Counted from the stretch's first letter, positions 2,220 to 59,157 are shown. The stretch is DNA of 63,378 nucleotides from an uncultured Turneriella sp. (GCA_964356715.1 CAYHJO010000001.1:1-63378), one strand, 5' to 3'. Notes: generated from the letters alone by a model not told the origin. A program made the numbers and translations.

Positions 2220-2948
2220 CTATGGAGCGAGCTGCCGCTCGAGATTCTCCGCCCGCACAAAAAGGTTCTCGGTCTCGATTCTCATGTGTTCGGTCACATC
2301 GGCTTCAAGCTCTTTCAGTTTTTCGAAAAGAAACCTGTATGAATTGCATGCGCCTTCAGGCAGCGAGTAATCCTTTGACAATTTTCGGATTTTCGCCAGC
2401 ATGTCTGTCGCCGAATCATGTTCATAATTCATGACACGAATGGGATTATTCACCGAGCCGCAGTGCATATTTTGCATGGGCTGTTTATTCTGGACTTTGT
2501 CGTGCATATCGAGTATCAGAGGGAAAAGGATTTGCTCTTCTTTTATCAGGTGCTGGTCGAGTTCCGCCTTCAACTGCGCACAAAAATTCCGGATTTCGAT
2601 GAGTTCCGGATGTGCGTCGCCATGCACTGAGGCAACTTTAAGGGCAAACTGCTCCACCACTGGCAGGGCTTCGTAGAGATAGGCATGATGGTTATCGAGA
2701 ATATGCCTGATAAGCCCGGGGGTTTCCAGTGCATCGGCGGTGTTCGCGGCTTTTCCCCGTCCGGCAACAGATTCCAGCTCTGCCAGTACCTCAGCGAGAT
2801 TGATCCCGGCCGTGGAGCATGCATCCTTTAGAGTATTGCCCCCGCCGCAGCAGAAATCCAGCCCGTGCTTGCTGAGCACGCCGGCGAGGAGCGGAATTTG
2901 CTCCGAAATTTCCCGTAAGGTCTTGTCTGCCAGTACTATTGTCTCCAT
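2220..2948 (-). CDS. ric: Iron-sulfur cluster repair di-iron protein (Ric/YtfE/ScdA)
   Basis: DFCCGG N-terminal motif; hemerythrin-like HHxYL, HG..HPEL, HLxKEE..LFP, EH, H...E...LF; AAGGAG RBS. Confidence 0.95.
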   Translation of the reverse strand: METIVLADKTLREISEQIPLLAGVLSKHGLDFCCGGGNTLKDACSTAGINLAEVLAELESVAGRGKAANTADALETPGLIRHILDNHHAYLYEALPVVEQFALKVASVHGDAHPELIEIRNFCAQLKAELDQHLIKEEQILFPLILDMHDKVQNKQPMQNMHCGSVNNPIRVMNYEHDSATDMLAKIRKLSKDYSLPEGACNSYRFLFEKLKELEADVTEHMRIETENLFVRAENLERQLAP

Positions 2949-2978
2949 CACTTACTCCTTGACCGTATATTCAATATT

Positions 2979-3157: not shown

Positions 3158-5125
3158 ATGAGAAATCTTTGGACAGACGCAGAAGCAAACGAATTTCCGG
3201 GTGATTTGGGATTAAGGGTTTATTCTTCCCGACTTCTGGGCCGCGAGAAGCGCCTTGTGCTGCATGGCGGTGGTAACACCTCGGTCAAGGTTATCCGCAA
3301 GGATATTTTCGGCCAGGAAGAAGACATCCTTTACGTCAAGGGCAGCGGTTGGGATCTCGAAACCATCGGCGAAAAAGGCTTTTCTCCGGTCTCTCTGAAC
3401 CACGCAATCAGACTCGCGTCGTTACCCTCGCTCAGTGATCCCGCGATGGTCAATGAATTAAGAACTCACATGCTCGAAGCTGCCGCCCCCACCCCTTCGG
3501 TTGAAGCCATCATGCACGCGGTGATTCCATACAAATACGTCGACCACACGCACGCCGATGCCATCTTATCGATCACCGATACGCAAAAGGGCGAGGATTT
3601 TCTCCGCGAGATCTATGGCGACCGTGTAGTGTATATCCCTTACGCGATGCCCGGCTTCGATCTCGCGCGGCTGGTCGCGGCTGAATTCCCACGCCAGGCG
3701 CATTCGGGAACGCAGGGCATGATACTTTTCAAGCATGGGGTGTTCTCATTCGGCGCTACGGCAAAAGAATCGTACGAACGTATGATTGCGCTGGTCGGTG
3801 AGGCTGAAGATTTTCTGGAAACGAAGAATGCGTCTGAAAATGTCTTTTCATTCGACATGGCACCGATGAGCGACATCGCGCCGATACTCGATTTGCGCCG
3901 GGATATCTGTGCACTTGCCGGCATGAACCTCATCCTGAGCACACACCGCACTGAAAAAACTCTGGCCTTTGCCAACCAGAAGGATATGACCGTTACGCAG
4001 AGGGGGCCCGCGACGCCGGACCATATCATCCGCACCAAAAGAAATCCCGCATTGAACCGCGATTTGCAGGCATTCTCTGCTGCTTACAGGAAATATTTCG
4101 AAGACAATTCCGTACGAGCGAAGCAACCGAAGAAAATTCTCGATACCGCACCCCGGCTGATTCTCGACCGGGAACTGGGCCTCTTGTGCGCCGGCAGACG
4201 CGCGCAAGACGCGCTGATAGCGGCAGAAATCTACGACCACACCATCGACATCGTATCGCGCGCCGAAAAACTCGACAAGTATCAGCCGCTGGACGAGCAG
4301 GATCTTTTCGACATGGAATACTGGGACCTCGAGCAGGCTAAACTCGTTAAACCGGGCAATCCGCCCATTTTTGAAGGCCAGATAGCGCTCGTTACCGGCG
4401 CCGCTTCAGGCATCGGCAAAGCCTGCGTGGCGGAATTTCTTGCTTCCGGCGCCGCGGTCGTCGGCCTGGACCGCAGCGATAAAATCACCGAAATTTTCTC
4501 CCGTCCGGATTATTTGGGTATCTGCTGCGATCTTACCGACGAGACGGCTGTGCGCGAGGCTTTTGTAAAGGCCGCCCTGGCTTTCGGCGGCGTCGATATG
4601 CTGATCCTGAATGCAGGCGTCTTTCCGCCGGGGAAAAGCATTGCGGAAATGGACATGGATTACTGGACGCGCGTGATGAATATCAATCTGAACGCAAATG
4701 TCACGGTCATGCGGCAGGCGCATGTATTCCTGAAAAAATCGCCGGCGGGCGGGCGCGTTGTGGCGATTGGTTCGAAAAACCTCGCAGCGCCCGGGCCCAA
4801 TGTCTCCGCTTACTCGGTCTCGAAAGCCGCCGTCAATCAGCTCATGCGCGTCGCTGTGCTCGAATGGGCGTCGGACGGCATACGCATCAACAGCATCCAT
4901 CCCAATTCTGTCTTCGACACGGGAATCTGGTCCGCCGAAGTTATCCAAAGCAGAGCGAAAAGTTACAATCTTACACCTGAAGCATACAGGAAAAATAACC
5001 TGCTTAAGATAGAAGTGACAAGCCCTGATGTTGCGCGTATGGCGGTGACAATGTGTTCCCCGGTCTTTTCGAGAACGACCGGTTCGGGTATTCCCGTTGA
5101 CGGCGGCGTTGAGCGGGTAGTGTAA
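3158..5125 (+). CDS. Bifunctional class II aldolase / short-chain dehydrogenase (RhaD-SDR fusion family)
   Basis: GGGNTSVK, KGSGWDL, PSVE...H, DHTH and TPDH aldolase motifs; TGAASGIG, NAG and YSVSK SDR motifs; start probably ATG 3158. Confidence 0.9.
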   Translation: MRNLWTDAEANEFPGDLGLRVYSSRLLGREKRLVLHGGGNTSVKVIRKDIFGQEEDILYVKGSGWDLETIGEKGFSPVSLNHAIRLASLPSLSDPAMVNELRTHMLEAAAPTPSVEAIMHAVIPYKYVDHTHADAILSITDTQKGEDFLREIYGDRVVYIPYAMPGFDLARLVAAEFPRQAHSGTQGMILFKHGVFSFGATAKESYERMIALVGEAEDFLETKNASENVFSFDMAPMSDIAPILDLRRDICALAGMNLILSTHRTEKTLAFANQKDMTVTQRGPATPDHIIRTKRNPALNRDLQAFSAAYRKYFEDNSVRAKQPKKILDTAPRLILDRELGLLCAGRRAQDALIAAEIYDHTIDIVSRAEKLDKYQPLDEQDLFDMEYWDLEQAKLVKPGNPPIFEGQIALVTGAASGIGKACVAEFLASGAAVVGLDRSDKITEIFSRPDYLGICCDLTDETAVREAFVKAALAFGGVDMLILNAGVFPPGKSIAEMDMDYWTRVMNINLNANVTVMRQAHVFLKKSPAGGRVVAIGSKNLAAPGPNVSAYSVSKAAVNQLMRVAVLEWASDGIRINSIHPNSVFDTGIWSAEVIQSRAKSYNLTPEAYRKNNLLKIEVTSPDVARMAVTMCSPVFSRTTGSGIPVDGGVERVV

Positions 5126-5255: not shown

Positions 5256-6092
5256 GTGAAAACCAGTTTTTTTGACGGCATCGAACAGACGCAGATTCGC
5301 ATCGGTGAAGCACTGGTTAATTCTCCGGTATTCTTCCGCGATCTGTCGTTCGACGCGTATGTGTTTTCCTGCGATGCGCGCAGCGCCGTGGCAAGACTTC
5401 CGTCGGGCAACTATTCGCCCATCAGGCTACCTTTTGGCAGATGCCTCAGCGCGTTGTTGTGCCTCGAACACCGCGACTCCGATTTGGGGCCATATAACGA
5501 AGCGGCTCTATGCGTTCCCCTTTCAGCCTTCGGATCGCACCTTTTGCCAGACTGGCTGACCGTGCTTCGCGAAGCCATCGACGGCAAGCTGCACGCGCAT
5601 ATTCTGCACATGCCGGTGAATTCTGAACTTGCGCTGCGGGGCGGCGTGGATTACTATGGGTTTCCGAAGTTCATGGCGGGCGTTGCCTTTCGGCACATGC
5701 AGAATGTCCGCGCCTGTGAATTAACCGACCGCGAAAACAAATTCCTGTCGCTGCGTATCTCGCCCGAGCGCGAACGCGGCATCTCGCTCGGCGCCCGGAA
5801 TATAACGTTCTGTTCTTATCCCGTCAAAGCCGGAAAACCGCTGCTGGGACGCATCGATATGCAGTTCGACGATCTGCACGCGAATTTTTTTCCGCGCCTC
5901 GAGCACCTTGAAATCGGCAATAGCGAAATGGCCGAAGCGGCTTCGCTGCTGCTGCAACACCCCATCGCACACATCAGCTCGCGCACTGCACGCGGAATCC
6001 TGAGATTGCCGGTCAATAGCCAACCGTCGGCCGTACTGCCAACGGCCGGATGTGAGGCTCGCAGCCGATTGGAGGCAATTCGTGGAAGCTGA
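5256..6092 (+). CDS. Acetoacetate decarboxylase (ADC)-fold family protein
   Basis: DSDLGPYNE, MPVNSELALRGG...YGFPK (Schiff-base Lys motif). Confidence 0.8.
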   Translation: MKTSFFDGIEQTQIRIGEALVNSPVFFRDLSFDAYVFSCDARSAVARLPSGNYSPIRLPFGRCLSALLCLEHRDSDLGPYNEAALCVPLSAFGSHLLPDWLTVLREAIDGKLHAHILHMPVNSELALRGGVDYYGFPKFMAGVAFRHMQNVRACELTDRENKFLSLRISPERERGISLGARNITFCSYPVKAGKPLLGRIDMQFDDLHANFFPRLEHLEIGNSEMAEAASLLLQHPIAHISSRTARGILRLPVNSQPSAVLPTAGCEARSRLEAIRGS

Positions 6093-6178
6093 AATCGAAA
6101 ATCTGTCAGAGGCGAAACGCGGCGTCATGTCCACAATAACGCGCATCGCATCGACGCATCAATACAAATGGAGAAACA

Positions 6179-7789
6179 ATGAAAGAAGACAAGTTTGATT
6201 TTATCGTGATCGGGGCAGGGCACCATGGCCTGTCGATGGCTGGTTATCTCGCGCAAGGTGGATTCAAAACCCTGCTGCTCGAACGCAGGCATGAGATGGG
6301 CGGCGGATTATCGACCGAGGAAGTCACGCAGCCCGGTTTTTACCATAACCTGCATTCCAATTTTCACGGATTGATCCCTTTCATGCCCTGCTATACGGAT
6401 TTTGAACTGGAAAAATCGGGTGTCCATTACTACCATCCCGAAGCCAATCTCGGTATGCCGCTCAAAGACGGTCGCGCGCTCGTGCTCTATTCCGATGAAA
6501 TCAAGAGCTATGAGTCGCTCGAAAAGTTCAGTAAAAAAGATGCGGATGCCTACGCGCGTTTCAAGAGTTCGATTTCCGACCATATGGACGAGCTTTTAAC
6601 GTACGTATATTCGCCACCCACTAAAGCAAACGAAGACGGCTCACACCGCTTACTGACGAATCTTTATGGCGAAGAGATTTTGCACCAGAGCCCTTACGAT
6701 TGGGTAAAGAGTTATTTTGAGAATCCGCATGTGCAGGCACTTTGCCTGTTTCATATGGCGATCGCCGGCTTCGACGTGACGCAGAAGGGTATGGCAAAGG
6801 CCGGTATCGGCTATCTGGGTTTTGCCACGAACTGGCAGCTCTGCCGCGGCGGCAGCCATTTTCTCGCGCACGCAATGGGCGGCTACTTTCTGCGCCAGGG
6901 CGGCTTTCTCGAAGAAAATGCCCCGGTAAAAAAAATCATCCTCGATGGCAAGCGGGCGGCCGGCGTCGAAACGGCCGATGGGCAGAAGTTTTATGCGGAC
7001 AAAGCGGTCATCAGCGCGATCGATGCGCACCAGACGTTGCTCGATTTTCTGCCGAAAGATGCGCTGGCCTCTGAGTTGCGGGAAAAAGTCAGCAAACTCG
7101 ATTACGGCACGGGCGATTCGCTCTTTGCCGTGCACCTTGCGCTCAAAGAGGCGCCACAGTATACCTCTGCCGCGTATAACCCCGACATCAACCGCACGTT
7201 TAATCTGAACATCGGCTATGAAACCCCCGAAGATGTCGCCGAGCATTTCGTCGAAACGCGTGCCGGTGAAGTACCGAAAGTGCCTCGCCTGAACTGCAGC
7301 ATCAATACACTGTTTGACCCGACGCAGGCGCCTGAGGGATTCCATACAGGACTCATCTGGCAGTTCGCGCCATACAACATCGAGGGCAAAGGACCCGAGC
7401 ATTGGAACAAAATCAAATACGATTTTGCGAAAGAGTGCATCAAGGTTTGGAGCACCTACGCCCCCAATCTCGCCGACAGCGTCATCGATTTCTATCCGTA
7501 CACACCGCTCGATATCGGAGAAAAAATGGTGAATATGCGCAACGGCGGATTCCATTGCGCAAGCGTCATGCCGTCGCAACTACAGAGCCTGAGGCCCACA
7601 GCGGAACTTTCGGGTTATAAAACGCCGGTCGAGGGCCTCTACATGTGCGGGTCCTGTATGCATGCGCATGGCGGCATCACCGGTTCGCCGTCGTATGCCG
7701 CGCTGCAGGTGATTGCCGATGATTTCGGCATTCGCGACAAGCTTAAGATCGGCAACAAATTCTGGGAAAAATCAGGAGCAAAAAAATGA
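6179..7789 (+). CDS. Phytoene desaturase-like (COG1233) FAD-dependent oxidoreductase, copy A
   Basis: IVIGAGHHGL FAD motif, GGGLSTEE, DPTQAPEG, C-terminal YKTPVEGLYMCG..H..GGITG. Confidence 0.85.
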   Translation: MKEDKFDFIVIGAGHHGLSMAGYLAQGGFKTLLLERRHEMGGGLSTEEVTQPGFYHNLHSNFHGLIPFMPCYTDFELEKSGVHYYHPEANLGMPLKDGRALVLYSDEIKSYESLEKFSKKDADAYARFKSSISDHMDELLTYVYSPPTKANEDGSHRLLTNLYGEEILHQSPYDWVKSYFENPHVQALCLFHMAIAGFDVTQKGMAKAGIGYLGFATNWQLCRGGSHFLAHAMGGYFLRQGGFLEENAPVKKIILDGKRAAGVETADGQKFYADKAVISAIDAHQTLLDFLPKDALASELREKVSKLDYGTGDSLFAVHLALKEAPQYTSAAYNPDINRTFNLNIGYETPEDVAEHFVETRAGEVPKVPRLNCSINTLFDPTQAPEGFHTGLIWQFAPYNIEGKGPEHWNKIKYDFAKECIKVWSTYAPNLADSVIDFYPYTPLDIGEKMVNMRNGGFHCASVMPSQLQSLRPTAELSGYKTPVEGLYMCGSCMHAHGGITGSPSYAALQVIADDFGIRDKLKIGNKFWEKSGAKK

Positions 7790-9366
7790 GCGCGCAGGAA
7801 TTTGATTTTATCGTTATCGGCGCCGGCCATAACGGCCTCATTGCCGCGAACTACCTTTGCCGTACCGGTGCTTCGGTGCTGCTGCTCGAGCGCAGGCTCG
7901 AAGCCGGCGGCGGACTGACGACCGAAGAAGTGACGCTTCCAGGTTATCTGCATAATTTACATTCGTACTTCCACGACACGATCGACATTATGCCACCTTA
8001 CCGCGATCTCGATCTCGAAGAGCACGGCGCGGTTTACATCAAGCCGCCCGTGCAAGTGGCAACGATCACACCCGACGGCAAGGCGCTGATTTCGCATACC
8101 GATGTGCAGAAGAGTATCGCTTCGCTCACACGTTTTTCCGCGGCCGATGCCAAGGCCTATGCCGACTGCCATGAAGAGTACCGCGAATACATGGAGACGA
8201 TCGTCGTCCCCGCGTTGTTCTCTGCGCCGTCGCATCCTTCCGAGCAGATCGCCGCGATGGAAGAAACCGACGAAGGTCTGGCATATCTGCGGCTTTGCCG
8301 GCAGACCCCGCAGCAGGTTGTCAGTGAACTCTTTGAAACAGAAATTGCGCGCGCACACGTGCTCTTTCAACTGGCAATTCCGCGCGGCGCGGTTTTCGAC
8401 AGCGCCGGCACGGGTTTTTTTGCGCCGCTCATTATTTCGCAAATTGAAGACTCGCAGATCTGCCGCGGCGGCTCGCATAAAATGGCGCACGCGCTGTGGA
8501 AAGCGCTCTTGAAAGGCGGCGGGGCGATACGCGGCGTGCGTGAGGTCAAGAGGCTAACCGTGGAAAAAGGTAAGGTCACCGGTGTCAAATTGCGCGACGG
8601 TGAAATCATCCGCGCAAGGAAAGGCGTGGTGTCAACGGTCGATATCAAGCAGACATTTGAGGATTTTCTGCAGGATGAGAAAATTGATACGAAGATAACG
8701 CAGGCATCGCGCAACTACCAGCTCGACGAGTTTTCTCTGTTCAGCGTGCATCTGGCGCTGAATGAACCACCCAAATATACTGCCGCAAAATTTGACGCCG
8801 ATAGCGATAAAGCCGTTAAAGTAAACCTCGGCTTTCATGACATGGCTGCGTTCACCGAACATTGGGCCGATATCCGCGCGGGCCGCCTGCCGCAGGTACC
8901 ACGGATGTACTGCTCTGCCCCTACCGTTTTTGATCCAACGCAGGCGCCGGAAGGCAAACACACCGCACTGGCGTGGATTCCCGTGCCCTATGCGCTGAAA
9001 GACAAAACATCGTGGGAGAAAATTAAACACGAATTCGGCGAAAAGTGCATCGCCTACTGGAAAACCTTCGCGCCGAATTTGGATGAGAAAAATATCATCG
9101 CCAAAAAATTCATGCCGCCAACAGACATCGACGCCAAATTCAGCAACATGCGGCAGGGGGGGATTTTCATGGGCAAAGTTACTCTCGACCAGATTGAATA
9201 TTTCCGCCCACATCCGCTGCTGTCGCAGTACAAGACCCCGATTGAAGGACTCTACCTGGGTGGCGCCGGCTGTCATCCGGGTGGCGGCATTATCGGCGGC
9301 GGTGGCTACATCGCCGCCTCGGTTATTGCGGACGATTTTGAACTCGATAAATGGTGGGAGGCTTAA
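7786..9366 (+). CDS. Phytoene desaturase-like (COG1233) FAD-dependent oxidoreductase, copy B
   Basis: IVIGAGHNGL, DPTQAPEG, YKTPIEGLYLGG..HPGGG; ATGA overlap with copy A. Confidence 0.85.
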   Translation: MSAQEFDFIVIGAGHNGLIAANYLCRTGASVLLLERRLEAGGGLTTEEVTLPGYLHNLHSYFHDTIDIMPPYRDLDLEEHGAVYIKPPVQVATITPDGKALISHTDVQKSIASLTRFSAADAKAYADCHEEYREYMETIVVPALFSAPSHPSEQIAAMEETDEGLAYLRLCRQTPQQVVSELFETEIARAHVLFQLAIPRGAVFDSAGTGFFAPLIISQIEDSQICRGGSHKMAHALWKALLKGGGAIRGVREVKRLTVEKGKVTGVKLRDGEIIRARKGVVSTVDIKQTFEDFLQDEKIDTKITQASRNYQLDEFSLFSVHLALNEPPKYTAAKFDADSDKAVKVNLGFHDMAAFTEHWADIRAGRLPQVPRMYCSAPTVFDPTQAPEGKHTALAWIPVPYALKDKTSWEKIKHEFGEKCIAYWKTFAPNLDEKNIIAKKFMPPTDIDAKFSNMRQGGIFMGKVTLDQIEYFRPHPLLSQYKTPIEGLYLGGAGCHPGGGIIGGGGYIAASVIADDFELDKWWEA

Positions 9367-9371
9367 TAAAG

Positions 9372-10025
9372 ATGCAAACTGAAAAAAAAACAGCGAAACC
9401 TGTAAGAATATCGAATACGCTCCTGGTCAATAAACCGATCCACGAGCTGTGGGAATTTTTTGCCGACATCGAGCGCTTTGCGGGCTTTGTGCCGACGGTC
9501 AAAGAATATAAGATGGAGGATGAAGTCACCTTTTCGGGCAAGGTCGGCGTAACGCTGGGGAAAATCCCCGTGCGCAGCAAGATCATTTTCAAGATCACGA
9601 AGAAAGAAGGGCCGTTTTATATGGAAGCGGAGGGCATTTCGTATATGGGTGAGACGATTGTCGAAATGAAGAAAAGCAAATCCGAGGCCGGTGAAATCAA
9701 CAAGAAGTCTGTCGGCCGCATATCAACAACTTTGCGTCTTTCTGTCGAATCAGATAACTCCACGCGGCTCGATTTTGTGGCTAACGTCGTCGCCGAAGGC
9801 AAATTGCGCAATATTTATAACAGTATTGTTAAACTCAAAGTTCCGGCGATAAAGAAAGAATTCGTCGAAAACTTACGCCGGGCGTTTTCGGTCGCTGTGG
9901 AGCAGATTGAAGACCAGGTAGAAGCGGTAATCGGCGTGGAAACTCCGGCGGGCGAGAAGAAACCCGGCAGAATCAGGAGATTTTTCTCGCGCAAAAAGCA
10001 GGTGCAAAATGAAAGTGCAGTCTAA
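9372..10025 (+). CDS. SRPBCC/CoxG-like ligand-binding protein
   Basis: PIHELWEFFADIERFAGFVP is a CoxG-type N-terminus; start probably ATG 9372. Confidence 0.75.
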   Translation: MQTEKKTAKPVRISNTLLVNKPIHELWEFFADIERFAGFVPTVKEYKMEDEVTFSGKVGVTLGKIPVRSKIIFKITKKEGPFYMEAEGISYMGETIVEMKKSKSEAGEINKKSVGRISTTLRLSVESDNSTRLDFVANVVAEGKLRNIYNSIVKLKVPAIKKEFVENLRRAFSVAVEQIEDQVEAVIGVETPAGEKKPGRIRRFFSRKKQVQNESAV

Positions 10026-10236
10026 ATTTCTGAACGGCGACGTCAGAGTCACTTCAATCAGGCCAAATGGCGATTCGATCAGGGTTGAGGGTACCATAAA
10101 AGAACTCTATCCGATCGAGGTCGAGCTGTCGGCGACCGATCTGATCGAAATACTGCAGGTGAGTTTCCGTCCCGAACTCTGGGTGCATTCGGCAAAGCTG
10201 CTGGCCAGTGGACTTCTGGAGGCCGGTGCAAAGTGA
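10009..10236 (+). CDS. Small hypothetical protein in the GRE operon
   Basis: 75 aa; overlaps both neighbours, consistent with translational coupling. Confidence 0.6.
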   Translation: MKVQSKFLNGDVRVTSIRPNGDSIRVEGTIKELYPIEVELSATDLIEILQVSFRPELWVHSAKLLASGLLEAGAK

Positions 10237-12586
10237 TTTCGGAACGCGGATTTCGGCATGGGCCCCGTCAGAGAAGATTCAGCGGCTGCTGAGCGACCAC
10301 TGCGCGGCCGTGCCCGCTCTGGGCGCTGAACGCGCGATCCACTATACGGATTTTTTCAGACGCGAAGCGCGTAAATACAAAGATCCGCATATGCGCCTTG
10401 CCAAAGCGTTTGCCGATCATCTCGAACGGCGGACCATCCGCATCTTCGACGGCGAGATTTTTGCCGGCAGCCACACCGAGCATCGGGTCGGGGCGATCTG
10501 TTATCCCGAGCTTGCCGGCAGCTTTATGCTCGAAGATCTGCTGCGTTTCGAAACCCGCAAAACCAATCCGCTGCGCGTCGAAAAGCGACACAAGGACCGG
10601 CTGATGTGGAACGTGGTACCTTACTGGTTCACGCGCAACATCGTCATGAAAGCATTTTCGTTTATCGACCGCATACGCTATTCGATCGATCAGCTGTCGG
10701 CTACCAGTTTTATTATCAACGAAGCCGGCGGTGTGGCACATTTCATTCCCGACTACGCCGGTTTGTTGCGACATGGAACCAGCGGTATCAGGGCGCAGAT
10801 TCAGACAAGAAAAGAAAAAGCGGGAATTTCCCCCGTGCAGCTGCAGTTCCTCGATGCAGCTCTGGTCGCTTTACAGGCGTTTGAAAGCTTTGCCGGTCGC
10901 TACCGCGCGGAAGCCGAACGCATCGGTAGGCACGACATTGCAGATTTGCTTGCCCGCGTGCCGCTTGGGCCCGCGAACAATATTCGTGAGGCGCTGCAGG
11001 CCATCTGGCTCTACCAGTTACTGATTCAGATCGAATCGCTCGACCAGGGCATTAGCCCCGGCCGGCTTGACCAGATTCTGTATCCGTACTATCGGCGTGA
11101 AAAAGCCGCGGGGACCTTCGTCGCCGCTGAGTTTTGCGACCTGATGTGCGCCTTTTCGCTCAACCTCTCAGAAGTGATTCCGTTGTTCTCCGGCCGGTTG
11201 ACTCGATATTACAGCGGGCTGCCAACGGGGCAGGCAATCGTTATCGGCGGTCTCGGTGCCAATGGCCAGTGTGCGGCAAACGAGCTGACATATCTCATGC
11301 TCGATGTCATGGAAAAATTCCGGGTTCGTCAGCCGAACTGGCATGCGCGCATCGGTAGTCGGTCAGAAAGGCGCTACGTGGATCGCGTCATGCAGGTCGT
11401 TGCGCAGGGCGGCGGTTCACCGGCACTTTACAACGACGATGTCATCATGCCGGCGCTGGAAAAGCACGGTCTTGACGGCGGCGAAGCGTGGAATTACGCT
11501 ACGGTCGGCTGCGTCGAACCGGCGATCGGCGGCAAGAGTTTTACGTCGACCGATGCGGCTATTTTCAATCTCGCGCTGTCGATGAACAACGTGCTGAAAA
11601 AATATGAGAGCGGATTGTGGTCGGTAATCCGGAGTTTTTTTCGGGAGAAGCAGGTTTCGAACACCATCGATGAGTTGATTGCCGAGATCCGCGAGGATCT
11701 GTGCCGCCGGCTTGACCATTTGCATTTCTGTCTGTCGAGTATCGAGCGCTCTCACCAGAAGCACCACCCGACACCGTTTTCTTCGCTTACGATTCGCGGC
11801 TGTATTGAGTCGGCCACCGACTGCGTGAATGGCGGTGCGTTAATCAACGGTTCGGGCATTCAGGCAGTCGGTCTCGCCGATTTAGCCGACTCGCTAAAGG
11901 CGCTCGACGATCTGGTGTTTCAAAATCGGCGCTACACCCTGGCCGAGATAGCAGGGTTATGCCGTCGGAATTTCGCGACCGCCGGTGAGGCGCTGGCTCG
12001 GGTGCGGCGCGAGGCGAAATTCGGCAATGACAACATTGAAGTCGACCGATACGCCGCCCGCCTGGCACAAATGTTTCACGACCTTACCGTGCGGAAAATG
12101 AATACGCGCGGCGGTCGCTGGACCCCAGGGCTGTATTCGATGACCTGTCATCGGGCATTCGGTATGCATATGGGCGCGTTGCCCTCCGGGCGTCTGCAGG
12201 GCGAAAGTCTGGCCGACGGACTCGCTCCGTCAGATGGCTGCGATGTACTCGGGCCTACGGCTTCGCTGAACTCGGCGTGTGCAATCGACAATACGCTGTT
12301 TGCCAATGGGATCAATCTGAATCTGAAATTTGCGTCTGCTTCCTTTTCCTCATCCACGGGGGCTGTATTACTGGCAAATCTGATTGAAACTTTTTTCAGG
12401 AAAGGCGGCATGCAGACGCAGATCAACGTGCTGGACCTGTCGGTGCTGGAAGCGGCCATGGCGAATCCCGGCAAATACCGCAATCTACTGGTACGCGTCT
12501 CGGGTTACTCTGCGTATTTCACCGATCTTACGCCAGAGATGCAGCGGGAAATCATCGCGAGAACCTTTCATTCGGCGGGAGGGTGA
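10208..12586 (+). CDS. Glycyl radical enzyme, non-PFL, eliminase-like (CxE) type; substrate unknown; start uncertain (GTG 10208 or 10226)
   Basis: Cys loop TVGCVEP (Cys codon 11510), Gly loop LVRVSGYSAYF (Gly codon 12503), GRLDQ, KFGND, PSGR...LADG. Confidence 0.92.
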   Translation: MDFWRPVQSDFGTRISAWAPSEKIQRLLSDHCAAVPALGAERAIHYTDFFRREARKYKDPHMRLAKAFADHLERRTIRIFDGEIFAGSHTEHRVGAICYPELAGSFMLEDLLRFETRKTNPLRVEKRHKDRLMWNVVPYWFTRNIVMKAFSFIDRIRYSIDQLSATSFIINEAGGVAHFIPDYAGLLRHGTSGIRAQIQTRKEKAGISPVQLQFLDAALVALQAFESFAGRYRAEAERIGRHDIADLLARVPLGPANNIREALQAIWLYQLLIQIESLDQGISPGRLDQILYPYYRREKAAGTFVAAEFCDLMCAFSLNLSEVIPLFSGRLTRYYSGLPTGQAIVIGGLGANGQCAANELTYLMLDVMEKFRVRQPNWHARIGSRSERRYVDRVMQVVAQGGGSPALYNDDVIMPALEKHGLDGGEAWNYATVGCVEPAIGGKSFTSTDAAIFNLALSMNNVLKKYESGLWSVIRSFFREKQVSNTIDELIAEIREDLCRRLDHLHFCLSSIERSHQKHHPTPFSSLTIRGCIESATDCVNGGALINGSGIQAVGLADLADSLKALDDLVFQNRRYTLAEIAGLCRRNFATAGEALARVRREAKFGNDNIEVDRYAARLAQMFHDLTVRKMNTRGGRWTPGLYSMTCHRAFGMHMGALPSGRLQGESLADGLAPSDGCDVLGPTASLNSACAIDNTLFANGINLNLKFASASFSSSTGAVLLANLIETFFRKGGMQTQINVLDLSVLEAAMANPGKYRNLLVRVSGYSAYFTDLTPEMQREIIARTFHSAGG

Positions 12587-13495
12587 ATGCACAGCGCTGC
12601 GGGGCATGTTGTTGCGCCCATCTTTGACATCCAGCGTTTCTCGCTGCATGATGGCCCGGGTATCCGGACGACCGTGTTTCTTAAAGGTTGCCTGCTCGAC
12701 TGTGCCTGGTGCCAGAATCCGGAATCCAAGAGCCGCAAACCGATGATTGCCTTCTACGCCAACCGGTGTTTGCAGTCGTTCGCGTGCCGCGCTGTCTGCC
12801 CCGACGATGCGATTCTCGCGGGGGCTTTTCGCGTCGATTACGGCAAATGCACTAACTGCAATTTGTGTCTCGAAGCCTGCCCCGGAGGCGCGTTGGAAAA
12901 AATCGGCGCTTACATGGTAGCCGACGATCTCTTTGCGGAGGTGCTGCGCGATGAAGATTATTTCGCCAGCGGCAGCGGTGGCATTACCGTTTCTGGCGGC
13001 GAACCCACCATACACGCGAAATTTCTGACCGATTTCTTCGGCCTGTGCCGACAGCGCGGCATCAATACACTGCTGCAGACTTCGGGCTATTTTCGCAGCA
13101 GTGTACTCACGGATGTTATGCCGCTGGTTGACCGCATCTGGTTTGATCTGAAGCTGATGGATGAACAGCAGCATATGGCTTTCACGGCACGCAAGAACCA
13201 GATTATTCTGCGCAATGCTGCGGCACTCATTGAGTGCGGGGCAGCGGTTGAGTTCCGCATTCCTCTGGTCGAAGGCATCACGGATACTGACGAGAACCTG
13301 ACGCAGATTGCAGGCTTTCTGCGTGACCACGGTGTCGAATCAGTGCATGTGCTGAAATACCACAATATGGGTGAAGCGAAGATTGACATTGTGCGGAGCC
13401 GGCAAAAAAAACTACAGAAAGCCTGCTACGATGACGCCCGTTTCGCCGATAGAAAAAAATTTCTCGAAAGGACAGGTCTGCGTGTTATCTGCTGA
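12587..13495 (+). CDS. Glycyl-radical enzyme activating enzyme (radical SAM with ferredoxin insert)
   Basis: HDGPGIRTTVFLKGC-LLDC-AWC-QNPE; ferredoxin-like CTNCNLCLEACP; SGGEP. Confidence 0.95.
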   Translation: MHSAAGHVVAPIFDIQRFSLHDGPGIRTTVFLKGCLLDCAWCQNPESKSRKPMIAFYANRCLQSFACRAVCPDDAILAGAFRVDYGKCTNCNLCLEACPGGALEKIGAYMVADDLFAEVLRDEDYFASGSGGITVSGGEPTIHAKFLTDFFGLCRQRGINTLLQTSGYFRSSVLTDVMPLVDRIWFDLKLMDEQQHMAFTARKNQIILRNAAALIECGAAVEFRIPLVEGITDTDENLTQIAGFLRDHGVESVHVLKYHNMGEAKIDIVRSRQKKLQKACYDDARFADRKKFLERTGLRVIC

Positions 13496-15225: not shown

Positions 15226-15687
15226 ATGCTTTACCGTAATTCCAGTCAGTACGCGCTACGCGCCTTAACCCACATGGCCGGTCTCAACAGCGGCAGTTGC
15301 CAGCGCATTGCGGATCTGGCCGAGGCGCAGAATATACCCCAGGCATATCTCAGCCAGATTTTCAAACAGCTGGTTGAGGGAAAGATTCTCAAGTCGATCA
15401 AGGGACCTGGCGGAGGTTACGTCTTTGCCCGTGCGCCGGAGAAAATTACCTTTTACGACATCAAAATCTGCGTCGATGGTCCGGATGATTTTGAGAAATG
15501 CGTGATCGGATTCGATGTCTGTTCAGACCATACGCTGTGTCCGGCGCACGAGGCATGGAAAAAACAAAAAGTCCAGGCGCAGAAAGACATGTGCAGCATC
15601 AATCTCGCCAGTGCCAGCGAGCTGGTACGAAAAAAACACGCCGAGCAGAATCTTGCCGCGCAGAAGACGCGGCGACGCCGTCTTTGA
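15226..15687 (+). CDS. Rrf2-family transcriptional regulator with three C-terminal Cys (likely Fe-S)
   Basis: SQYALRAL, IPQAYLSQI, SIKGPGGGY; CVIGFDVCSDHTLCPAH. Confidence 0.9.
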   Translation: MLYRNSSQYALRALTHMAGLNSGSCQRIADLAEAQNIPQAYLSQIFKQLVEGKILKSIKGPGGGYVFARAPEKITFYDIKICVDGPDDFEKCVIGFDVCSDHTLCPAHEAWKKQKVQAQKDMCSINLASASELVRKKHAEQNLAAQKTRRRRL

Positions 15688-54529: not shown

Positions 54530-55105
54530 ATGCCACTCTCAACCCCAACGAACTGGTGGAAACCGTTCAACAAAGAAGAGCGTATCTGGCTCTATATTTC
54601 GATCGCGTGGGGTATCATCATGTTTGTCATGATGCCGCTCGGTCACTTCTGGAACCAGAACGTCTCTTCTGAAACATACAAAACAAATCCCGAGGAATAC
54701 CGGCTGATCGCCGATAAGTTCATCGCCACCTACCAGCGCAAAGACGCGAAGGGTGAGGCCGTGACGCACAACGGCAAACCCGGCGGCATTCCGCTGGTCG
54801 ATGCGCCCAGCAAAGAAAAAGGCGATGTGTTTCTTGTGGCGCAGGCCTGGCAGTTTCGCCCGGTGCTGGTGATGAAGAAGAATAAAACATACCGTATTCA
54901 CATGTCGTCGCTCGACTACCAGCACGGCTTCTCGTTGCAGCCGCAGAACCTGAATATCCAGATTCTGCCGTACTACGATTTCGTGATCACGATGAGCCCG
55001 AACGAAACGGGAAAATTTTTCCTCATCTGCAATGAGTACTGCATGTTCGCAGGCGAGAAGTTCGGCCACGATACGATGGTCGGGCAAGTGATTGTGGAGG
55101 ATTAA
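54530..55105 (+). CDS. Heme-copper oxidoreductase subunit II (single TM, CuA)
   Basis: AWQF; D.QHGF; CNEYC-x8-H-DT-M CuA ligands. Confidence 0.92.
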   Translation: MPLSTPTNWWKPFNKEERIWLYISIAWGIIMFVMMPLGHFWNQNVSSETYKTNPEEYRLIADKFIATYQRKDAKGEAVTHNGKPGGIPLVDAPSKEKGDVFLVAQAWQFRPVLVMKKNKTYRIHMSSLDYQHGFSLQPQNLNIQILPYYDFVITMSPNETGKFFLICNEYCMFAGEKFGHDTMVGQVIVED

Positions 55106-55106
55106 A

Positions 55107-56672
55107 ATGAGTATAGCTGATATTACCAACCAATTCAGAACCTGCCCGACAACCGGACTGAAAGTCCACCTGCCGGCGCAGCGTTTAATCTGGATCAACG
55201 CGGTCTCGGCCGTCGTGTTCCTGTTAATCGGCGGCATTATGGCGATTCTGATCGCGCTGACCCGCTGGCCTGCAGTGCACCTTCTGCCGCAAGATCTCTT
55301 CTACCGTTTTCTGACAGCGCACGGCATCAACATGCTCGTATTCTGGATTGTGTTCTTCGAAATGGCGGGCATTATTTTTGCCGCGCAGACGATACTCAAT
55401 TCGCGTTATCCCGGCATCAAGTTCGGCTGGTTTAATTATGGTCTGATGATTACCGGTGCTATCATGGTCGAAGTGATGGTTTTTACGGGTAAGGCGGATG
55501 TCATGTTTACTGCGTATCCCCCGCTCAAGGCAAACCCGATCTTCTACCTGGGCATTATTCTTTTCGCCGTCGGCGCTCTCTTTAATTGCTTCCAGTTCAT
55601 CTATGCGCTGATCATCGCCAAGCGTGAAGGATATCATAAGGGAAGCTTGCCGCTTTTCACCTATGGCATACTCACTGCGGTGATTATTGCGATCTTTACA
55701 CTGGTGTCAGGTGCAGCCGCGTTTATCCCGGCATTCCTGTGGAGCATCGGTGTGATTCCGCACATTGACCCCGAGTACTACCGCATTGCGTTCTGGGGTT
55801 TCGGCCATTCAGCGCAGCAGATTAACCTGGCGGCGATGGTCGCGATCTGGTACCTGTTGGCGAACCTGACCACAGGGGCACAGCCGGTGAACCAGCGCAT
55901 GTGCCGTTGGGCATTCGTTCTGTACCTCTTGGGCATCAACCTCGGTTCGATTCACCACAACCTGGTTGACCCAGGCCTGTCGGCGACGTACCGCATTTTC
56001 AACACCAGTTACCTCTTTTATGCTGCGACGATCGGTTCGATGATCCATGCATTCTCGATACCTGCAGCGGTTGAAACTGCACAGCGCGCAAAAGGCTTCA
56101 CGAAGGGCCTGTTCCAGTGGCTGACGAATGCACCGTGGGGCCAACCCGGTTTCTCGGGCATGGTGCTGTCGATGGTGATTTTCGGCTTCTTCGGCGGTGT
56201 AACAGGTATCATTCTGTCCGTCGAGCAGCTGAATATGCTGTCGCACAACAATTTACGCGTTCCGGGCCACTTCCACATGACAGTCGTGGGCGGTACTTCG
56301 CTGGCTTTCATGGCGGTGACTTACTACATTCTGCCGCTCGTGCTGCAGAGAAAACTCATCGGCGCCAAATGGGCGAAATACCAACCCTACATCTTTGCGA
56401 TTGGCCTGATGATGTTCTCGACCGGTATGCACTTTGCCGGTGTGATGGGCGCCCCCCGCCGCCACTGGGATGTCACGTTCAATAACGCAGTCATACAGGT
56501 GCCATTTGACCCGGCGATGTACACGTTCCTGGGTCTCGTCGGTATCGGGGCAATCGTGGCCTTTACCGGGCTTTTGATCTTCATCGGTATTGCAGTGCTG
56601 ACTGTTTTCTTCGGTGAAAAGATCCCATCGAAAATCGAACCACATACCCCTGCGCATGCGCCGGCGGCATAA
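55107..56672 (+). CDS. Heme-copper oxidoreductase subunit I, B-family-derived eNOR-type (putative nitric oxide reductase)
   Basis: Six His ligands (TAHG, FGHSAQQ, IHHN, GHFH); position +4 from the helix VI His (codon 55806) is Gln, not the cross-linked Tyr. Confidence 0.85.
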   Translation: MSIADITNQFRTCPTTGLKVHLPAQRLIWINAVSAVVFLLIGGIMAILIALTRWPAVHLLPQDLFYRFLTAHGINMLVFWIVFFEMAGIIFAAQTILNSRYPGIKFGWFNYGLMITGAIMVEVMVFTGKADVMFTAYPPLKANPIFYLGIILFAVGALFNCFQFIYALIIAKREGYHKGSLPLFTYGILTAVIIAIFTLVSGAAAFIPAFLWSIGVIPHIDPEYYRIAFWGFGHSAQQINLAAMVAIWYLLANLTTGAQPVNQRMCRWAFVLYLLGINLGSIHHNLVDPGLSATYRIFNTSYLFYAATIGSMIHAFSIPAAVETAQRAKGFTKGLFQWLTNAPWGQPGFSGMVLSMVIFGFFGGVTGIILSVEQLNMLSHNNLRVPGHFHMTVVGGTSLAFMAVTYYILPLVLQRKLIGAKWAKYQPYIFAIGLMMFSTGMHFAGVMGAPRRHWDVTFNNAVIQVPFDPAMYTFLGLVGIGAIVAFTGLLIFIGIAVLTVFFGEKIPSKIEPHTPAHAPAA

Positions 56673-56681
56673 GGAGAAGTT

Positions 56682-56816
56682 ATGAGCAACGATAACCAAA
56701 AAGAAAAAATGCACGCGCCGGGCAGTTTTGTGCTGGCGCTGATCTTCCTCGCGTGGTTTGCCGTAGTGTACTTCACGCAGTGGATTGCGTTGAGTAAGAA
56801 TTGGATTGTGTATTAA
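56682..56816 (+). CDS. 44-aa single-TM subunit IIa-like peptide (below the ORF-track cutoff)
   Basis: AAGGAG RBS; MSNDNQKEKMHAPGSFVLALIFLAWFAVVYFTQWIALSKNWIVY. Confidence 0.75.
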   Translation: MSNDNQKEKMHAPGSFVLALIFLAWFAVVYFTQWIALSKNWIVY

Positions 56817-56916
56817 CTCATCCCCCCGGCCCCCTTCTCTTGCAAAGAGAAGGGGGAGCTAAGAGAGAGTCTTCCTCAACCCCCTCTCTTTGCAAGAGAG
56901 GGGCAGGGGGTGAGTT
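56815..56916. repeat. MITE/REP-like element, about 100 bp
   Basis: AACTCA.CCCC...GGGG.TGAGTT termini; two CCCC(T)TCTCTT-GCA-AAGAGA(A)GGGG hairpins. Confidence 0.8.
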
Positions 56917-56922
56917 AAAACC

Positions 56923-59157
56923 ATGAAACCCACAGCCTTCCGCCAACCGGTTTTCCAGTTCTTTCTCGGCCTCTTCACCCGCGCTGAAACCGCGATCAAC
57001 CATGTCTGGGGTGAGCGCTGGAATTTCTTCTACTATCTAGGCTCTTTGCCCATTGTCCTTCTCTTTATTCTGCTGTTCACCGGCCTCTTCATGTTTATCT
57101 ACTATAACATGTCTGTGTCGTCGAGCTACGACTCCGTAAAGTATATGACCGAACACGCGCTGTTCGGCCGTTTCATGCGCAACCTGCACCGTTATGCGGC
57201 AGATGCGATGATGTTTTTCGTTATCTTACACCTGCTTCGGGTGCTGTTTGAAGAGAAATTCCAGAACCATCGTACACTGGCCTGGATTACCGGCCTTATC
57301 ATCATGCTGCTGATGCTGGTCCAGGGTGTCACCGGCTACATTCTGCCGCTCGACACAACTTCGCGTTTTGTGATGGAAAAGACCTCCGAGATATTGGCCG
57401 GTCTCAAAGTGTTTGGCGATACCCTGCCGCGCTCGTTTTCTTCGCCGGCACTGCTCGGCAAATGGATCATGTGGGTGATACTCATCGTGCACCTGATCAT
57501 CCCTCTGTTTTTTGTGCTCTTGCTGTTTATTCATCTGCTGCGCGTTTCGCGCGCCAAACTGTTTCCACCGAAGCACATCTCGCTCGCCTTCATCGCGATT
57601 CTGGCAGTTTATACCATAGTCATCCCGATACCGATGGCGGGCAAGGCCGAAGCCGAAAAGCTGCCGCAGCTTCTGCAGCCCGACTGGTTTTATCTGTTTT
57701 TCGCGCCGGTATTTGAAAACCGTTTCGGCATCTATATCTGGTTCGCAATGGGGGCGACGGTCTTTGGCCTCTTCGCTTTGCCATGGCTACTCAAACGCCG
57801 CAAGATTGTGCCGGCGGTAGTCACTGCCGACAAATGCACAGGCTGCGGGCTGTGCGCGATCGATTGTCCGTATCAGGCGATGCACATGGTCGAACGGCGT
57901 GACGAGAGCCATCACAAATACCTGGTCTCGATCGACACCAATATCTGCTCGGGCTGTGGCGTATGTTCGGGCTCGTGCGCTTATGGTGCGATTGGGTTTC
58001 CGGCCTCACCCACCCTCACCCCCAACCCCTCTCCCGAAGGGAGAGGGGAGCTTAAACTCCCCTTCTCTCTGCAAGAGAAGGGGGCGGGGGATGAGTTCGG
58101 CGAGCTCAACGGCAAATGGCTCACCCTCGTCTGCCAGAGCCGCGCACATACTCTCGGTATTAGCGATGATTCAGGCAGGTCGCATAGCGACCTGCCTGAA
58201 TCATCGCATGTCTTCCAGGTCGTTCCATGCTCAGGCAAACTCGGCGTCAGCATGGCAGAAGAGATTCGCAGCGCCGGCGCAAAAGGCATCATTGTCGGCG
58301 CCTGCCCCGGCGGCGATTGCTGGTACCGCGAAGGCAACAAATGGCTCGAAGACCGCATCGCGCAGAATCGCAAACCGGGGTTTAGAAAAATTCCCGCCGA
58401 GTTTCCGATTCTCGGCATACGTTTTACCGGCGCGCAGAAGAAGGATTTTCTGCGTGAAGTGAATTCGATCGTTACGCAGCAGATATACCGCAATAAACCG
58501 ATACCGACGCGGCTGTTTGAATTCCTCAAACCCTCGCAGTGGGCATATTCGTTTTCCATGAGCACGCTTGCGCTCGCGGCGCTGCTGTGGGTGTTCTATA
58601 TGGGGTCGTCGTCGCGCTTTGGTGCTGTCACGGGCGACGCGAATGCCGCGCTGATTCGTCTCGACTTCTTCTACCAGACCGACAAAAAGACTTGCTCCGC
58701 CGACATGATTCCACCGGGCGCGAAACAGGCCGCGCTCGAACGCATGGCAGGTCTGGTCAAGCTCGACAATCTCACACCCGAAGCGCGCGAGCGTATGCTC
58801 AAACAGGCAGAAGACAGCGTCGCGAGCAAATACTGTAGCCGCGCGCGCCGCAGTCTCGACATTCAGGTGCGCGTCGATGGCAATCTGGTCGCCGAAAATT
58901 CGTATGCACCGGCTGGCTTCCAGAACGACGGTATTACGTATGTGCTGATGAAGCAGAAGACGACGCCGGGGGTGCACACAATACACATCGCCGCGCATGA
59001 AAGAGACACCGCATCGCTGGGGCGCAAATTCGAATTTGCGGAAAAAATGGAATTCATTCAGGGCGAGGTAAAATTGATTGACTTCGAACCTAATCAGGCA
59101 AAGTTCTTTCTGCGCACGGTCAAGCCTGTGCCTGAAAATGCGACAGGGAAGGAGTAG
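56923..59157 (+). CDS. Fusion protein: cytochrome b + 2x[4Fe-4S] ferredoxin + MvhD/FlpD-like [2Fe-2S] domain + TM + soluble tail
   Basis: Heme His pairs LHRY..LHLLR and VHL..IHLLR, PDWF; CTGCGLCAIDCP, CSGCGVCSGSCA; VPCSG, GACPGGDCWYREGN. Confidence 0.88.
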   Translation: MKPTAFRQPVFQFFLGLFTRAETAINHVWGERWNFFYYLGSLPIVLLFILLFTGLFMFIYYNMSVSSSYDSVKYMTEHALFGRFMRNLHRYAADAMMFFVILHLLRVLFEEKFQNHRTLAWITGLIIMLLMLVQGVTGYILPLDTTSRFVMEKTSEILAGLKVFGDTLPRSFSSPALLGKWIMWVILIVHLIIPLFFVLLLFIHLLRVSRAKLFPPKHISLAFIAILAVYTIVIPIPMAGKAEAEKLPQLLQPDWFYLFFAPVFENRFGIYIWFAMGATVFGLFALPWLLKRRKIVPAVVTADKCTGCGLCAIDCPYQAMHMVERRDESHHKYLVSIDTNICSGCGVCSGSCAYGAIGFPASPTLTPNPSPEGRGELKLPFSLQEKGAGDEFGELNGKWLTLVCQSRAHTLGISDDSGRSHSDLPESSHVFQVVPCSGKLGVSMAEEIRSAGAKGIIVGACPGGDCWYREGNKWLEDRIAQNRKPGFRKIPAEFPILGIRFTGAQKKDFLREVNSIVTQQIYRNKPIPTRLFEFLKPSQWAYSFSMSTLALAALLWVFYMGSSSRFGAVTGDANAALIRLDFFYQTDKKTCSADMIPPGAKQAALERMAGLVKLDNLTPEARERMLKQAEDSVASKYCSRARRSLDIQVRVDGNLVAENSYAPAGFQNDGITYVLMKQKTTPGVHTIHIAAHERDTASLGRKFEFAEKMEFIQGEVKLIDFEPNQAKFFLRTVKPVPENATGKE
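58013..58097. repeat. In-frame copy of the 56815-type element within the cytochrome b fusion
   Basis: CCCTCACCCCCAACCCCTCTCCC-GAA-GGGAGAGGGG...CCCCTTCTCT-CTGCA-AGAGAAGGGG..GATGAGTT; encodes TLTPNPSPEGRGELKLPFSLQEKGAGDE. Confidence 0.85.

What the first reader, a model, noticed from the sequence alone, without database searches (positions are those of the whole stretch)
5256..13495. Candidate undescribed pathway: glycyl radical enzyme operon with twin CrtI-like flavoproteins, an SRPBCC protein and an ADC-fold enzyme
Seen: seven co-directional genes, with 6179-13495 overlapping or separated by at most 5 nt: ADC-fold, two COG1233 flavoproteins, CoxG/SRPBCC, a 75-aa ORF, GRE and activase. No microcompartment, CoA-acylating aldehyde dehydrogenase, P5C reductase or Bss/Hpd-type small Cys-rich subunit is present, so it does not match the cut, pdu/grm, hypD, isl, hpd or bss loci I know. 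Known: GREs are O2-sensitive, whereas cultured Leptospiraceae are described as aerobic or microaerophilic. Inference: an anaerobic radical transformation of a hydrophobic or cyclic substrate (SRPBCC pocket, desaturase-type redox pair, Schiff-base enzyme), implying an unrecognised anoxic metabolism that fits with the eNOR module in the same window.
Basis: partly seen in the sequence, partly recalled or inferred. Interest (0 to 1): 0.85.

Follow-up and report, generated by a model that had tools for sequence, protein, structure and literature searches.

The report
Wandering radical enzyme joins lipid cassette
Two gene modules that relatives carry separately sit end to end here, so the seven genes are probably not one pathway: a radical enzyme of an unstudied, widespread family with its activator, which likely strips water or an alcohol from a fat-derived diol without oxygen, and a twin-flavoprotein cassette predicted to oxidise a lipid without oxygen.

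Summary
The seven genes are real, co-directional and tightly packed, but the set is a mosaic. FlavA-FlavB-CoxG-orf75 recurs without the GRE in 3 of 3 related loci. L031 (88-97% protein identity) has an oleate hydratase-like gene in the GRE's slot, and G011 (99% complete) has no PFL-like gene. The GRE belongs to a conserved, uncharacterised clade. In 26 loci the activase follows it in 21 of 21 with downstream sequence, while FlavA/B, ADC or orf75 lie nearby in 0 of 26. What remains is of interest. The GRE's nearest solved relative is the functionally disputed Archaeoglobus PFL2, sharing 12 of 16 chosen pocket positions. It keeps the eliminase set (CxE, His, Asp) and probably has a roomier pocket, so it is likely a 1,2-eliminase, possibly on a lipid-derived diol. 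Carriers more often have nosZ (14 of 23 vs 5 of 39). The flavoproteins carry the covalent-flavin histidine motif of CtmAB/delta-24 desaturase. Substrates are untested.

The parts
5256..6092 (+). ADC-fold protein with the Schiff-base-type Lys138 (G-F-P-K) kept. Module 1, accessory. Its C-terminus is 21 aa longer than in L031, where the next gene is an amine-oxidase-family flavoprotein that now lies on contig C17 of this genome.
   Evidence: PF06314 E 2.7e-10; Lys motif in window, L031 and L054 (its role is recalled)
6179..7789 (+). FlavA, COG1233 flavoprotein, His59 in G-F-x-x-N-L-H-S. Predicted alpha subunit of a CtmAB/delta-24-desaturase-type enzyme. Module 1.
   Evidence: motif consensus from PMC11061730; 97% identical in L031, 68-69% in G011 and G017
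7786..9366 (+). FlavB, second COG1233 flavoprotein, His59 invariant in 80 of 80 aligned homologues; carotenoid-desaturase fold. Module 1.
9372..10025 (+). CoxG/SRPBCC protein, predicted lipid-binding shuttle or anchor. Module 1.
   Evidence: PF06240 E 1e-11; follows FlavB in 4 of 4 cassette loci
10009..10236 (+). orf75, Cys-free small protein of an unnamed family that travels with the flavoproteins, not with the GRE. Its variable C-terminal tail holds the module boundary at about 10205.
10226..12586 (+). Glycyl radical enzyme, 786 aa, with Cys429-Val-Glu431, Gly760, His172, Asp443 and Tyr637. Uncharacterised clade nearest A. fulgidus PFL2. Module 2.
12587..13495 (+). Radical-SAM GRE activase with CxxxCxxC and a ferredoxin-like insert. 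Module 2.
   Evidence: TIGR02494 278.7 bits, cut-off 174.35; Cys motifs; follows the GRE in 21 of 21 clade loci with downstream sequence
10153..10320 (.). Module junction. DNA likeness to L031 (84% over 4031 nt) stops at 10205; the GRE start overlaps the orf75 stop by 11 nt.

Best explanation
The locus joins two modules that relatives carry apart: a GRE-plus-activase pair that likely acts alone as an anaerobic 1,2-eliminase on a bulky, possibly lipid-derived diol, and a FlavA-FlavB-CoxG-orf75 cassette predicted to be an oxygen-independent allylic desaturase or hydroxylase for a lipophilic alkene. Module 2. The activase would install the radical on Gly760 and pass it to Cys429. The thiyl radical would take H from the carbinol carbon, Glu431 would deprotonate that hydroxyl, and His172 (with Asp443) would help expel the neighbouring OH or OR group, giving an aldehyde or ketone. 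Shown: residue conservation and equivalence to glycerol dehydratase (GD) His164/Cys433/Glu435/Asp447/Tyr640/Gly763. Inferred: the chemistry. GD His281, Ser282, Tyr339 and Ser642 are replaced by invariant Gln274, Gly275, Gly335 and Met639, which would leave room for a larger non-polar substituent (inferred from sequence only; no cavity was measured). A product handled by household aldehyde dehydrogenase and beta-oxidation would explain why the pair needs no pathway genes. My odds: eliminase-type chemistry about 0.7; a lipid-derived substrate (glycerol ether, monoglyceride or long-chain 1,2-diol) about 0.3. Module 1. FlavA and FlavB likely form a heteromer, each with flavin bound covalently at His59, that removes allylic H from a sterol, terpenoid or unsaturated fatty acid. 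CoxG would carry the lipid; orf75 is a likely accessory protein. In this lineage the GRE pair was inserted at the 3' end of orf75 and is now probably co-transcribed with the cassette.
For: GRE without cassette: 0 of 26 clade loci (48-57% identity; 25 genomes; 18 with at least 1.5 kb upstream) hold FlavA/B, ADC or orf75; one has a 21% CoxG-like hit 7 kb away. The activase follows in 21 of 21 with downstream sequence. Sister clades at 34-41%: 0 of 12. Cassette without GRE: L031, G011 and G017; no PF02901 gene in G011 (99% complete) or G017 (82%); GRE in 0 of 19 other family genomes. In 400 phylum genomes 12 have a GRE match and 3 a FlavB match, none both. The DNA likeness to L031 ends at the GRE start. 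Active site: E166, H172, Q274, G275, G335, C429, E431, M639, T640, H642 and G760 are invariant in 120 of 120 homologues, D443 in 119 and Y637 in 116; GD numbering; CxE and His164 roles from PMC13450708 section 26. Flavoproteins: N-x-H-S/A in 109 of 120 FlavB homologues, matching the flavinylated His57/58 consensus of delta-24 desaturase and CtmAB (PMC11061730). Cassette neighbours are lipid genes (SCP-x-type thiolase, oleate hydratase-like, MMPL/LolA uptake genes in L031), and distant twin pairs lie beside EBDH-type Mo hydroxylases (L055, L060). Anoxia: nirK, nosZ; GRE next to ubiTUV/nos in L004 and norQ/D-like genes in L006.
Against: The GRE start overlaps orf75, leaving no intergenic room for its own promoter, and GRE/activase codon use is ordinary for this genome (34th and 57th percentile). 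The join is therefore not clearly recent and may have been kept by selection. The context of the closest GRE homologue (P0122, 79%) could not be fetched. Eight of the 26 loci have under 1.5 kb upstream, and most are incomplete MAGs. The zero overlap among 400 genomes is also what chance gives (expected about 0.1), and 11 of those 12 GREs are sister-clade. Neighbours of most GRE loci say nothing about substrate. The nosZ link is not phylogenetically independent, and 9 of 23 carriers lack it. No NrdD was found in 5 of 5 genomes tested. CtmAB and delta-24 desaturase sequences were not aligned directly. The role of GD pocket residues other than H164, C433 and E435 is recalled.
Confidence: 0.72

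Rival explanations
1. Lineage-specific co-option. The modules arose separately, but here the GRE now works on a product of the flavoprotein cassette (for example an allylic or vicinal hydroxy-lipid), filling the slot that an oleate hydratase-like hydro-lyase fills in L031.
For: Overlapping start, no terminator-like hairpin called between orf75 and the GRE, genome-typical codon use, and a lipid hydro-lyase in the same slot of L031.
Against: Seen in one genome only. The same slot holds an unrelated 242-aa gene in G011, and the GRE pocket is the same as in stand-alone members.
Confidence: 0.17
2. One reading: an ancient, conserved seven-gene pathway for a hydrophobic or cyclic substrate.
For: Tight packing; every family fits lipophilic substrates; a GRE (limonenylsuccinate synthase) and CtmAB both attack limonene in other bacteria.
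Against: 0 of 26 and 0 of 12 GRE loci with the cassette; 3 of 3 other cassette loci without the GRE; G011 lacks any PFL-like gene; ADC is absent from the G011 locus.
Confidence: 0.05
3. The GRE is a fumarate-adding alkyl/benzylsuccinate synthase, as proposed for A. fulgidus PFL2.
For: Nearest structure is PFL2, suggested to be a MASS (PMC13450708 section 33; PMC8163825 passages).
Against: CxE motif of eliminases/isomerases; BSS and MASS score 153 and 148 bits against 387 for GD; no Cys-rich small subunits, which BSS and MASS have (orf75 family Cys-free in 24 of 26); no conserved Arg within 21 residues after Cys429 (the fumarate-binding Arg of BSS is recalled).
Confidence: 0.06
4. The GRE is a dehydratase, C-N lyase or ring-opening isomerase for a small polar substrate (polyol, amino alcohol, anhydrosugar). 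This rivals only the substrate guess, not the mosaic.
For: GD, propanediol dehydratase and PflD are the next-best structures; the extra invariant acid E166 and H642 could bind an amine or more hydroxyls.
Against: No transporter, kinase, aldolase or alcohol dehydrogenase is conserved next to it, unlike the GD locus with its alcohol dehydrogenase.
Confidence: 0.35

Closest known systems
Archaeoglobus fulgidus PFL2/PflD (PDB 2F3O), GRE of disputed function
   Same: Best sequence and fold match (412 bits, TM 0.92, 32% identity). Shares 12 of 16 chosen pocket positions, read by eye, including E166, Q274, F439, S441, M639 and T640.
   Different: G275, L332, G335 and H642 differ. In-clade homologues score 875-1420 bits, so this is a separate bacterial clade, found in facultative denitrifier-type genomes.
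B12-independent glycerol and 1,2-propanediol dehydratases (1R8W, 5I2A, 9RCO)
   Same: CxE Cys loop, His164, Asp447 and Tyr640 equivalents, GRE plus activase.
   Different: About 30% identity; only 5 of the 16 positions shared with GD; H281/S282/Y339/S642 replaced; no alcohol dehydrogenase or microcompartment genes.
Limonene dehydrogenase CtmAB and delta-24 steroid desaturase (PMC4109377, PMC11061730)
   Same: Two adjacent paralogous COG1233-type subunits of about 530-570 aa with the N-terminal flavinylation His motif; lipid-catabolic neighbourhoods.
   Different: Subunits are 41% identical to each other (27% in CtmAB, 26% in delta-24-SD); consensus deviates (N-L-H-S rather than H-A); no CtmEF ferredoxin pair; CoxG and orf75 instead; substrate unknown.
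Carotenoid desaturase/ketolase CrtI/CrtO
   Same: Fold (4REP TM 0.79); NCBIfam CrtO is the top model.
   Different: 223-262 bits against a cut-off of 1000, and below the CrtI cut-off; no carotenoid genes at the locus.

Membership tests
PFL-like glycyl radical enzyme superfamily | Gly loop, Cys loop, 10-stranded barrel | tested here: met
   PF02901+PF01228; C429 and G760 invariant; model pLDDT 90.8, TM 0.92 to GREs
PFL-like glycyl radical enzyme superfamily | Dedicated radical-SAM activase | tested here: met
   TIGR02494 above cut-off; adjacent in 21 of 21 loci
GRE 1,2-eliminases/isomerases | [quoted passage not shown] | tested here: met
   C429-V-E431 in 120 of 120; definition from PMC13450708
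GRE 1,2-eliminases/isomerases | Radical C-O, C-N or C-S cleavage of a substrate | not testable with these tools
   Needs anaerobic reconstitution
Named GREs (CutC, HypD, HpfG/HpsG, IAD, HPAD, PFL, PflD) | NCBIfam cut-off | tested here: not met
   For example CutC 336/1050, HypD 329/1100, IAD 265/1100, PFL2-3 subfamily 570/678
Glycerol/propanediol dehydratase | Pocket residues H281, S282, Y339 (F in PD), S642 | tested here: not met
   Q274, G275, G335, M639; pocket roles recalled
Fumarate-adding X-succinate synthases | Cys-rich Fe-S small subunits | tested here: not met
   None at the locus; orf75 Cys-free
CtmAB/delta-24 desaturase flavoenzymes | Two adjacent paralogous COG1233 subunits | tested here: met
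CtmAB/delta-24 desaturase flavoenzymes | Flavinylation His in G-F-x-x-N/S-T/L-H near residue 57 | tested here: met
   His59 in both subunits; last consensus position S, not A
CtmAB/delta-24 desaturase flavoenzymes | Direct sequence clade membership with CtmA/B | not testable with these tools
   Their sequences were not in any collection reached
CtmAB/delta-24 desaturase flavoenzymes | Covalent flavin and allylic oxidation | not testable with these tools
   Needs protein MS and assay
CrtI/CrtO carotenoid enzymes | NCBIfam cut-off | tested here: not met

The most novel reading that the evidence does not exclude
The GRE defines a new reaction class member: a stand-alone radical lyase that cleaves glycerol-ether or other long-chain vicinal C-O bonds without oxygen in denitrifying bacteria, i.e. 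a missing entry enzyme for anaerobic ether-lipid or long-chain diol breakdown. It would also settle the function of Archaeoglobus PFL2. In this lineage it has been recruited behind a radical-flavin lipid desaturase cassette to form a young two-radical lipid pathway.
Probability: 0.15. Interest if true: 0.85.

Novelty: new variant of a known kind. Interest (0 to 1): 0.5.

Why it matters
The seven-gene pathway does not hold, but the GRE clade does. It is tightly conserved (120 listed clusters at 51-100% identity), spread over Myxococcota, Acidimicrobiia, Alphaproteobacteria and spirochaetes, and is the bacterial clade here with the closest pocket to A. fulgidus PFL2, whose function a 2026 review calls debated for nearly two decades (PMC13450708). 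PFL2-like genes are already read as alkane-activation markers in MAG papers (PMC8163825). A two-gene bacterial version with eliminase residues and no small subunits makes that question testable and warns against the marker reading. The cassette adds a candidate third type of CtmAB-like flavoenzyme with two conserved accessory proteins, in a genus not found linked to such chemistry in my searches.

Tried and rejected
Complex prediction of FlavB with orf75 gave no verdict (score 0.00); it is not used as evidence. The orf75 profile found 0 of 301 and 0 of 251 genomes (overlapping samples of one phylum, no positive control). Homology of orf75 to the small ORFs beside distant twin pairs stayed weak (hhalign probability 19-23%). 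The ESM Atlas gave only unnamed clusters. No RNA holder was listed, so expression is unknown. One search showed no listed contig across the junction; one search did. The promoter/terminator scan was near chance, and no FNR-type box lay upstream of the genes (motif recalled). Codon use does not mark the GRE as foreign. ADC had no PDB match. No close FlavB or GRE homologue lies on plasmids (best 32% and 34%). Ten of 20 GRE-carrying genomes hold distant COG1233 genes (at most 35% identity); in G032 they are about 70 kb from the GRE, so I rejected them as linkage. Eight weaker hits (L022-L029, 28-39%) were left out of the clade count; they also show no cassette. Two long repeat proteins (P0248, P0266) were dropped from the orf75 set. 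The careful tree did not finish; the quick tree is used, and row L098 was empty and is ignored. The careful comparison with GD/PD pocket papers failed: PMC4957038 and PMC4992073 were not held, and searches found nothing. Earlier-findings look-ups were blank. orf75 as a GRE small subunit was rejected: it is Cys-free and absent from GRE loci.
Full report
Observation. Better starts are CoxG 9372 and GRE 10226; the gaps from FlavA to the activase are -4, 5, -17, -11 and 0 nt. The window's genome shares a genus with G011, whose proteins are labelled Turneriella sp.. The best-matching public runs are groundwater metagenomes, and one contig bridges the orf75/GRE junction without differences, though that run may be the source sample.

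The cassette travels without the GRE. A FlavB scan of metagenomes gave one locus, L031. It has FlavA 97%, FlavB 94%, CoxG 88%, orf75 90% and ADC 71%, but no GRE or activase in 18 kb, and DNA likeness ends at window 10205. Its order is thiolase, aldolase/SDR remnant, ADC, amine-oxidase-family flavoprotein, 187-aa gene, FlavA, FlavB, CoxG, orf75, oleate hydratase-like gene (547 bits against an NCBIfam cut-off of 567). The two genes missing between ADC and FlavA in the window lie on contig C17 of the same genome, and the window's ADC runs 21 residues past the L031 stop, so the window arrangement looks rearranged (inference). FlavA/B occur in 2 of 19 other family genomes. G011 has FlavA-FlavB-CoxG-orf75; G017 has ADC, the amine oxidase, FlavA-FlavB-CoxG and orf75 up to a contig end. 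Neither has a PF02901 match, and G011 is 99% complete.

The GRE travels without the cassette. It was found in 0 of 19 other family genomes and in 6 of 186 class genomes including this one. One search gave 29 loci, 21 at 50-57% identity; searches added five more clade loci. Of these 26 (25 genomes), the activase follows directly in 21 of 21 with downstream sequence. FlavA/B, ADC or orf75 occur in 0 of 26, of which 18 have at least 1.5 kb upstream; one has a remote 21% CoxG-like hit. Sister clades at 34-41% show 0 of 12. Neighbours vary: ubiTUV and nos genes (L004), norQ/D-like genes (L006), hydrogenase (L012), Mo enzymes (L014, L019), TonB receptors and transposases. Part of the 40% sister clade is GntR(FadR-type)-activase-GRE. 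In 400 phylum genomes, 12 carried a GRE match and 3 a FlavB match, none both; this agrees with the mosaic but is also expected by chance.

What the GRE is. It falls below every NCBIfam GRE cut-off. Its nearest structure by sequence, profile and fold is A. fulgidus PFL2, then glycerol and propanediol dehydratases and PflD (model pLDDT 90.8). The best 120 of 373 hits at E<=1e-100 are 51-100% identical and form a well-supported clade on a long stem in a quick tree (15 rows, 100% SH-aLRT). Against C. butyricum GD (L092), H164, C433, E435, D447, Y640 and G763 are kept as H172, C429, E431, D443, Y637 and G760, while H281, S282, Y339 and S642 become Q274, G275, G335 and M639. E166, T640 and H642 are further invariants. 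The review PMC13450708 (abstract, sections 23, 26 and 33, passages) gives CxE as the mark of eliminases and isomerases, assigns Glu435 and His164 their acid-base roles, lists Cys-rich small subunits for BSS/MASS/HPAD, and calls PFL2 unresolved. PFL2 shares 12 and GD 5 of 16 positions that I chose as pocket equivalents (my selection; other pocket roles recalled). I therefore infer 1,2-elimination (about 0.7). The Tyr-to-Gly and Ser-to-Met changes, the absence of pathway genes and the FadR-type regulators of the sister clade make a lipid-derived diol or glycerol ether my preferred substrate, but only at about 0.3; a small polar substrate is about as likely.

What the cassette is. FlavA and FlavB have a carotenoid-desaturase fold but miss the Crt cut-offs. 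Both carry His59 in G-[FY]-x-x-N-L-H-S; 109 of 120 homologues have N-x-H-S/A and His59 is invariant in 80 of 80 aligned. PMC11061730 (abstract, passages, supplement passages) reports covalent FMN on His57/58 in a shared consensus of delta-24 steroid desaturase and limonene dehydrogenase CtmAB, both two-subunit oxygen-independent allylic oxidases; PMC4109377 (passages) places ctmAB in COG1233. Distant twin pairs lie next to EBDH-type Mo enzymes. It works like CtmAB by prediction; membership is not proven, as no direct alignment was possible. orf75 is a real small family (6 and 24 hits), and an orf75-like ORF directly follows single COG1233 genes in L100 and L101 but not the pair in L102.

Anoxia. 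The genome has nirK, nosZ, two Mo-enzyme genes and a NOR-like oxidase, and no NrdD match. nosZ is found in 14 of 23 GRE carriers against 5 of 39 non-carriers (Fisher p 1e-4, overstated because kin are not independent, MAGs are incomplete and three later carriers were untested). nirK and the NOR-like oxidase are also in GRE-less relatives.

Against my reading. The overlap leaves no room for a separate promoter, codon use is ameliorated, and a lipid hydro-lyase fills the same slot in L031, so co-option in this lineage remains possible (0.17). The closest homologue's context is unseen.

Literature. Searches found no paper on this clade or locus; the library lacks most subscription journals, and bioRxiv supplements were closed. 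PMC8163825 (passages) shows PFL2-like GREs being read as Ass/Bss. Khelifi 2014 and LaMattina 2016 were not held and are known only through citations.

Verdict. Observation confirmed; pathway interpretation largely refuted; enzymes uncharacterised. New variant of a known kind, interest 0.5.

Noticed in passing
L090:7941-11316, L091:7941-11316 (plasmids of Acinetobacter towneri and Moraxella osloensis): A related GRE (34%) plus activase behind an AraC-type regulator, among transposases, on plasmids of hosts recalled as strict aerobes; 4 of 24 plasmid hits. Its pocket differs from this clade.
   Followed up: partly
L023:1396-4881: One open frame of about 1114 aa that joins an activase to a GRE in a Leptospirales MAG; a possible natural fusion.
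   Followed up: no
L103:7039-10044 (G188): Second GRE of 1001 aa with an N-terminal extension of about 200 aa that has no Pfam match, plus activase.
   Followed up: partly
L079, L084, L085, L114: Sister-clade GREs (about 40%) with no activase within about 8 kb on either side.
   Followed up: partly
L077, L080, L081, L082: Divergent GntR/FadR-type regulator-activase-GRE unit in other spirochaetes; L112 has a GntR-like gene upstream of a core-clade GRE (by eye).
   Followed up: partly
window 54530-62656: Heme-copper oxidase cluster (COX1-family 526 aa, cytochrome b/Fe-S, SCO, CtaA). Far below the CtaD cut-off and present in GRE-less relatives; eNOR identity not tested.
   Followed up: partly
window 2220-2951 and 15226-15687: RIC iron-sulfur repair protein (passes TIGR03652) and an Rrf2 regulator flank the locus.
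   Followed up: no
L056:10938-11339, L057:9397-10017, L058:470-874, L060:12063-12593: Small conserved ORFs beside distant twin COG1233 pairs, weakly similar to orf75.
   Followed up: partly
L031:1649-2029: 3' remnant of the aldolase/SDR gene that is whole in the window (3158-5125), a further sign of rearrangement around ADC.
   Followed up: partly
own genome C176:6757-8052: COX1-family match with one in-frame TAG.
   Followed up: no
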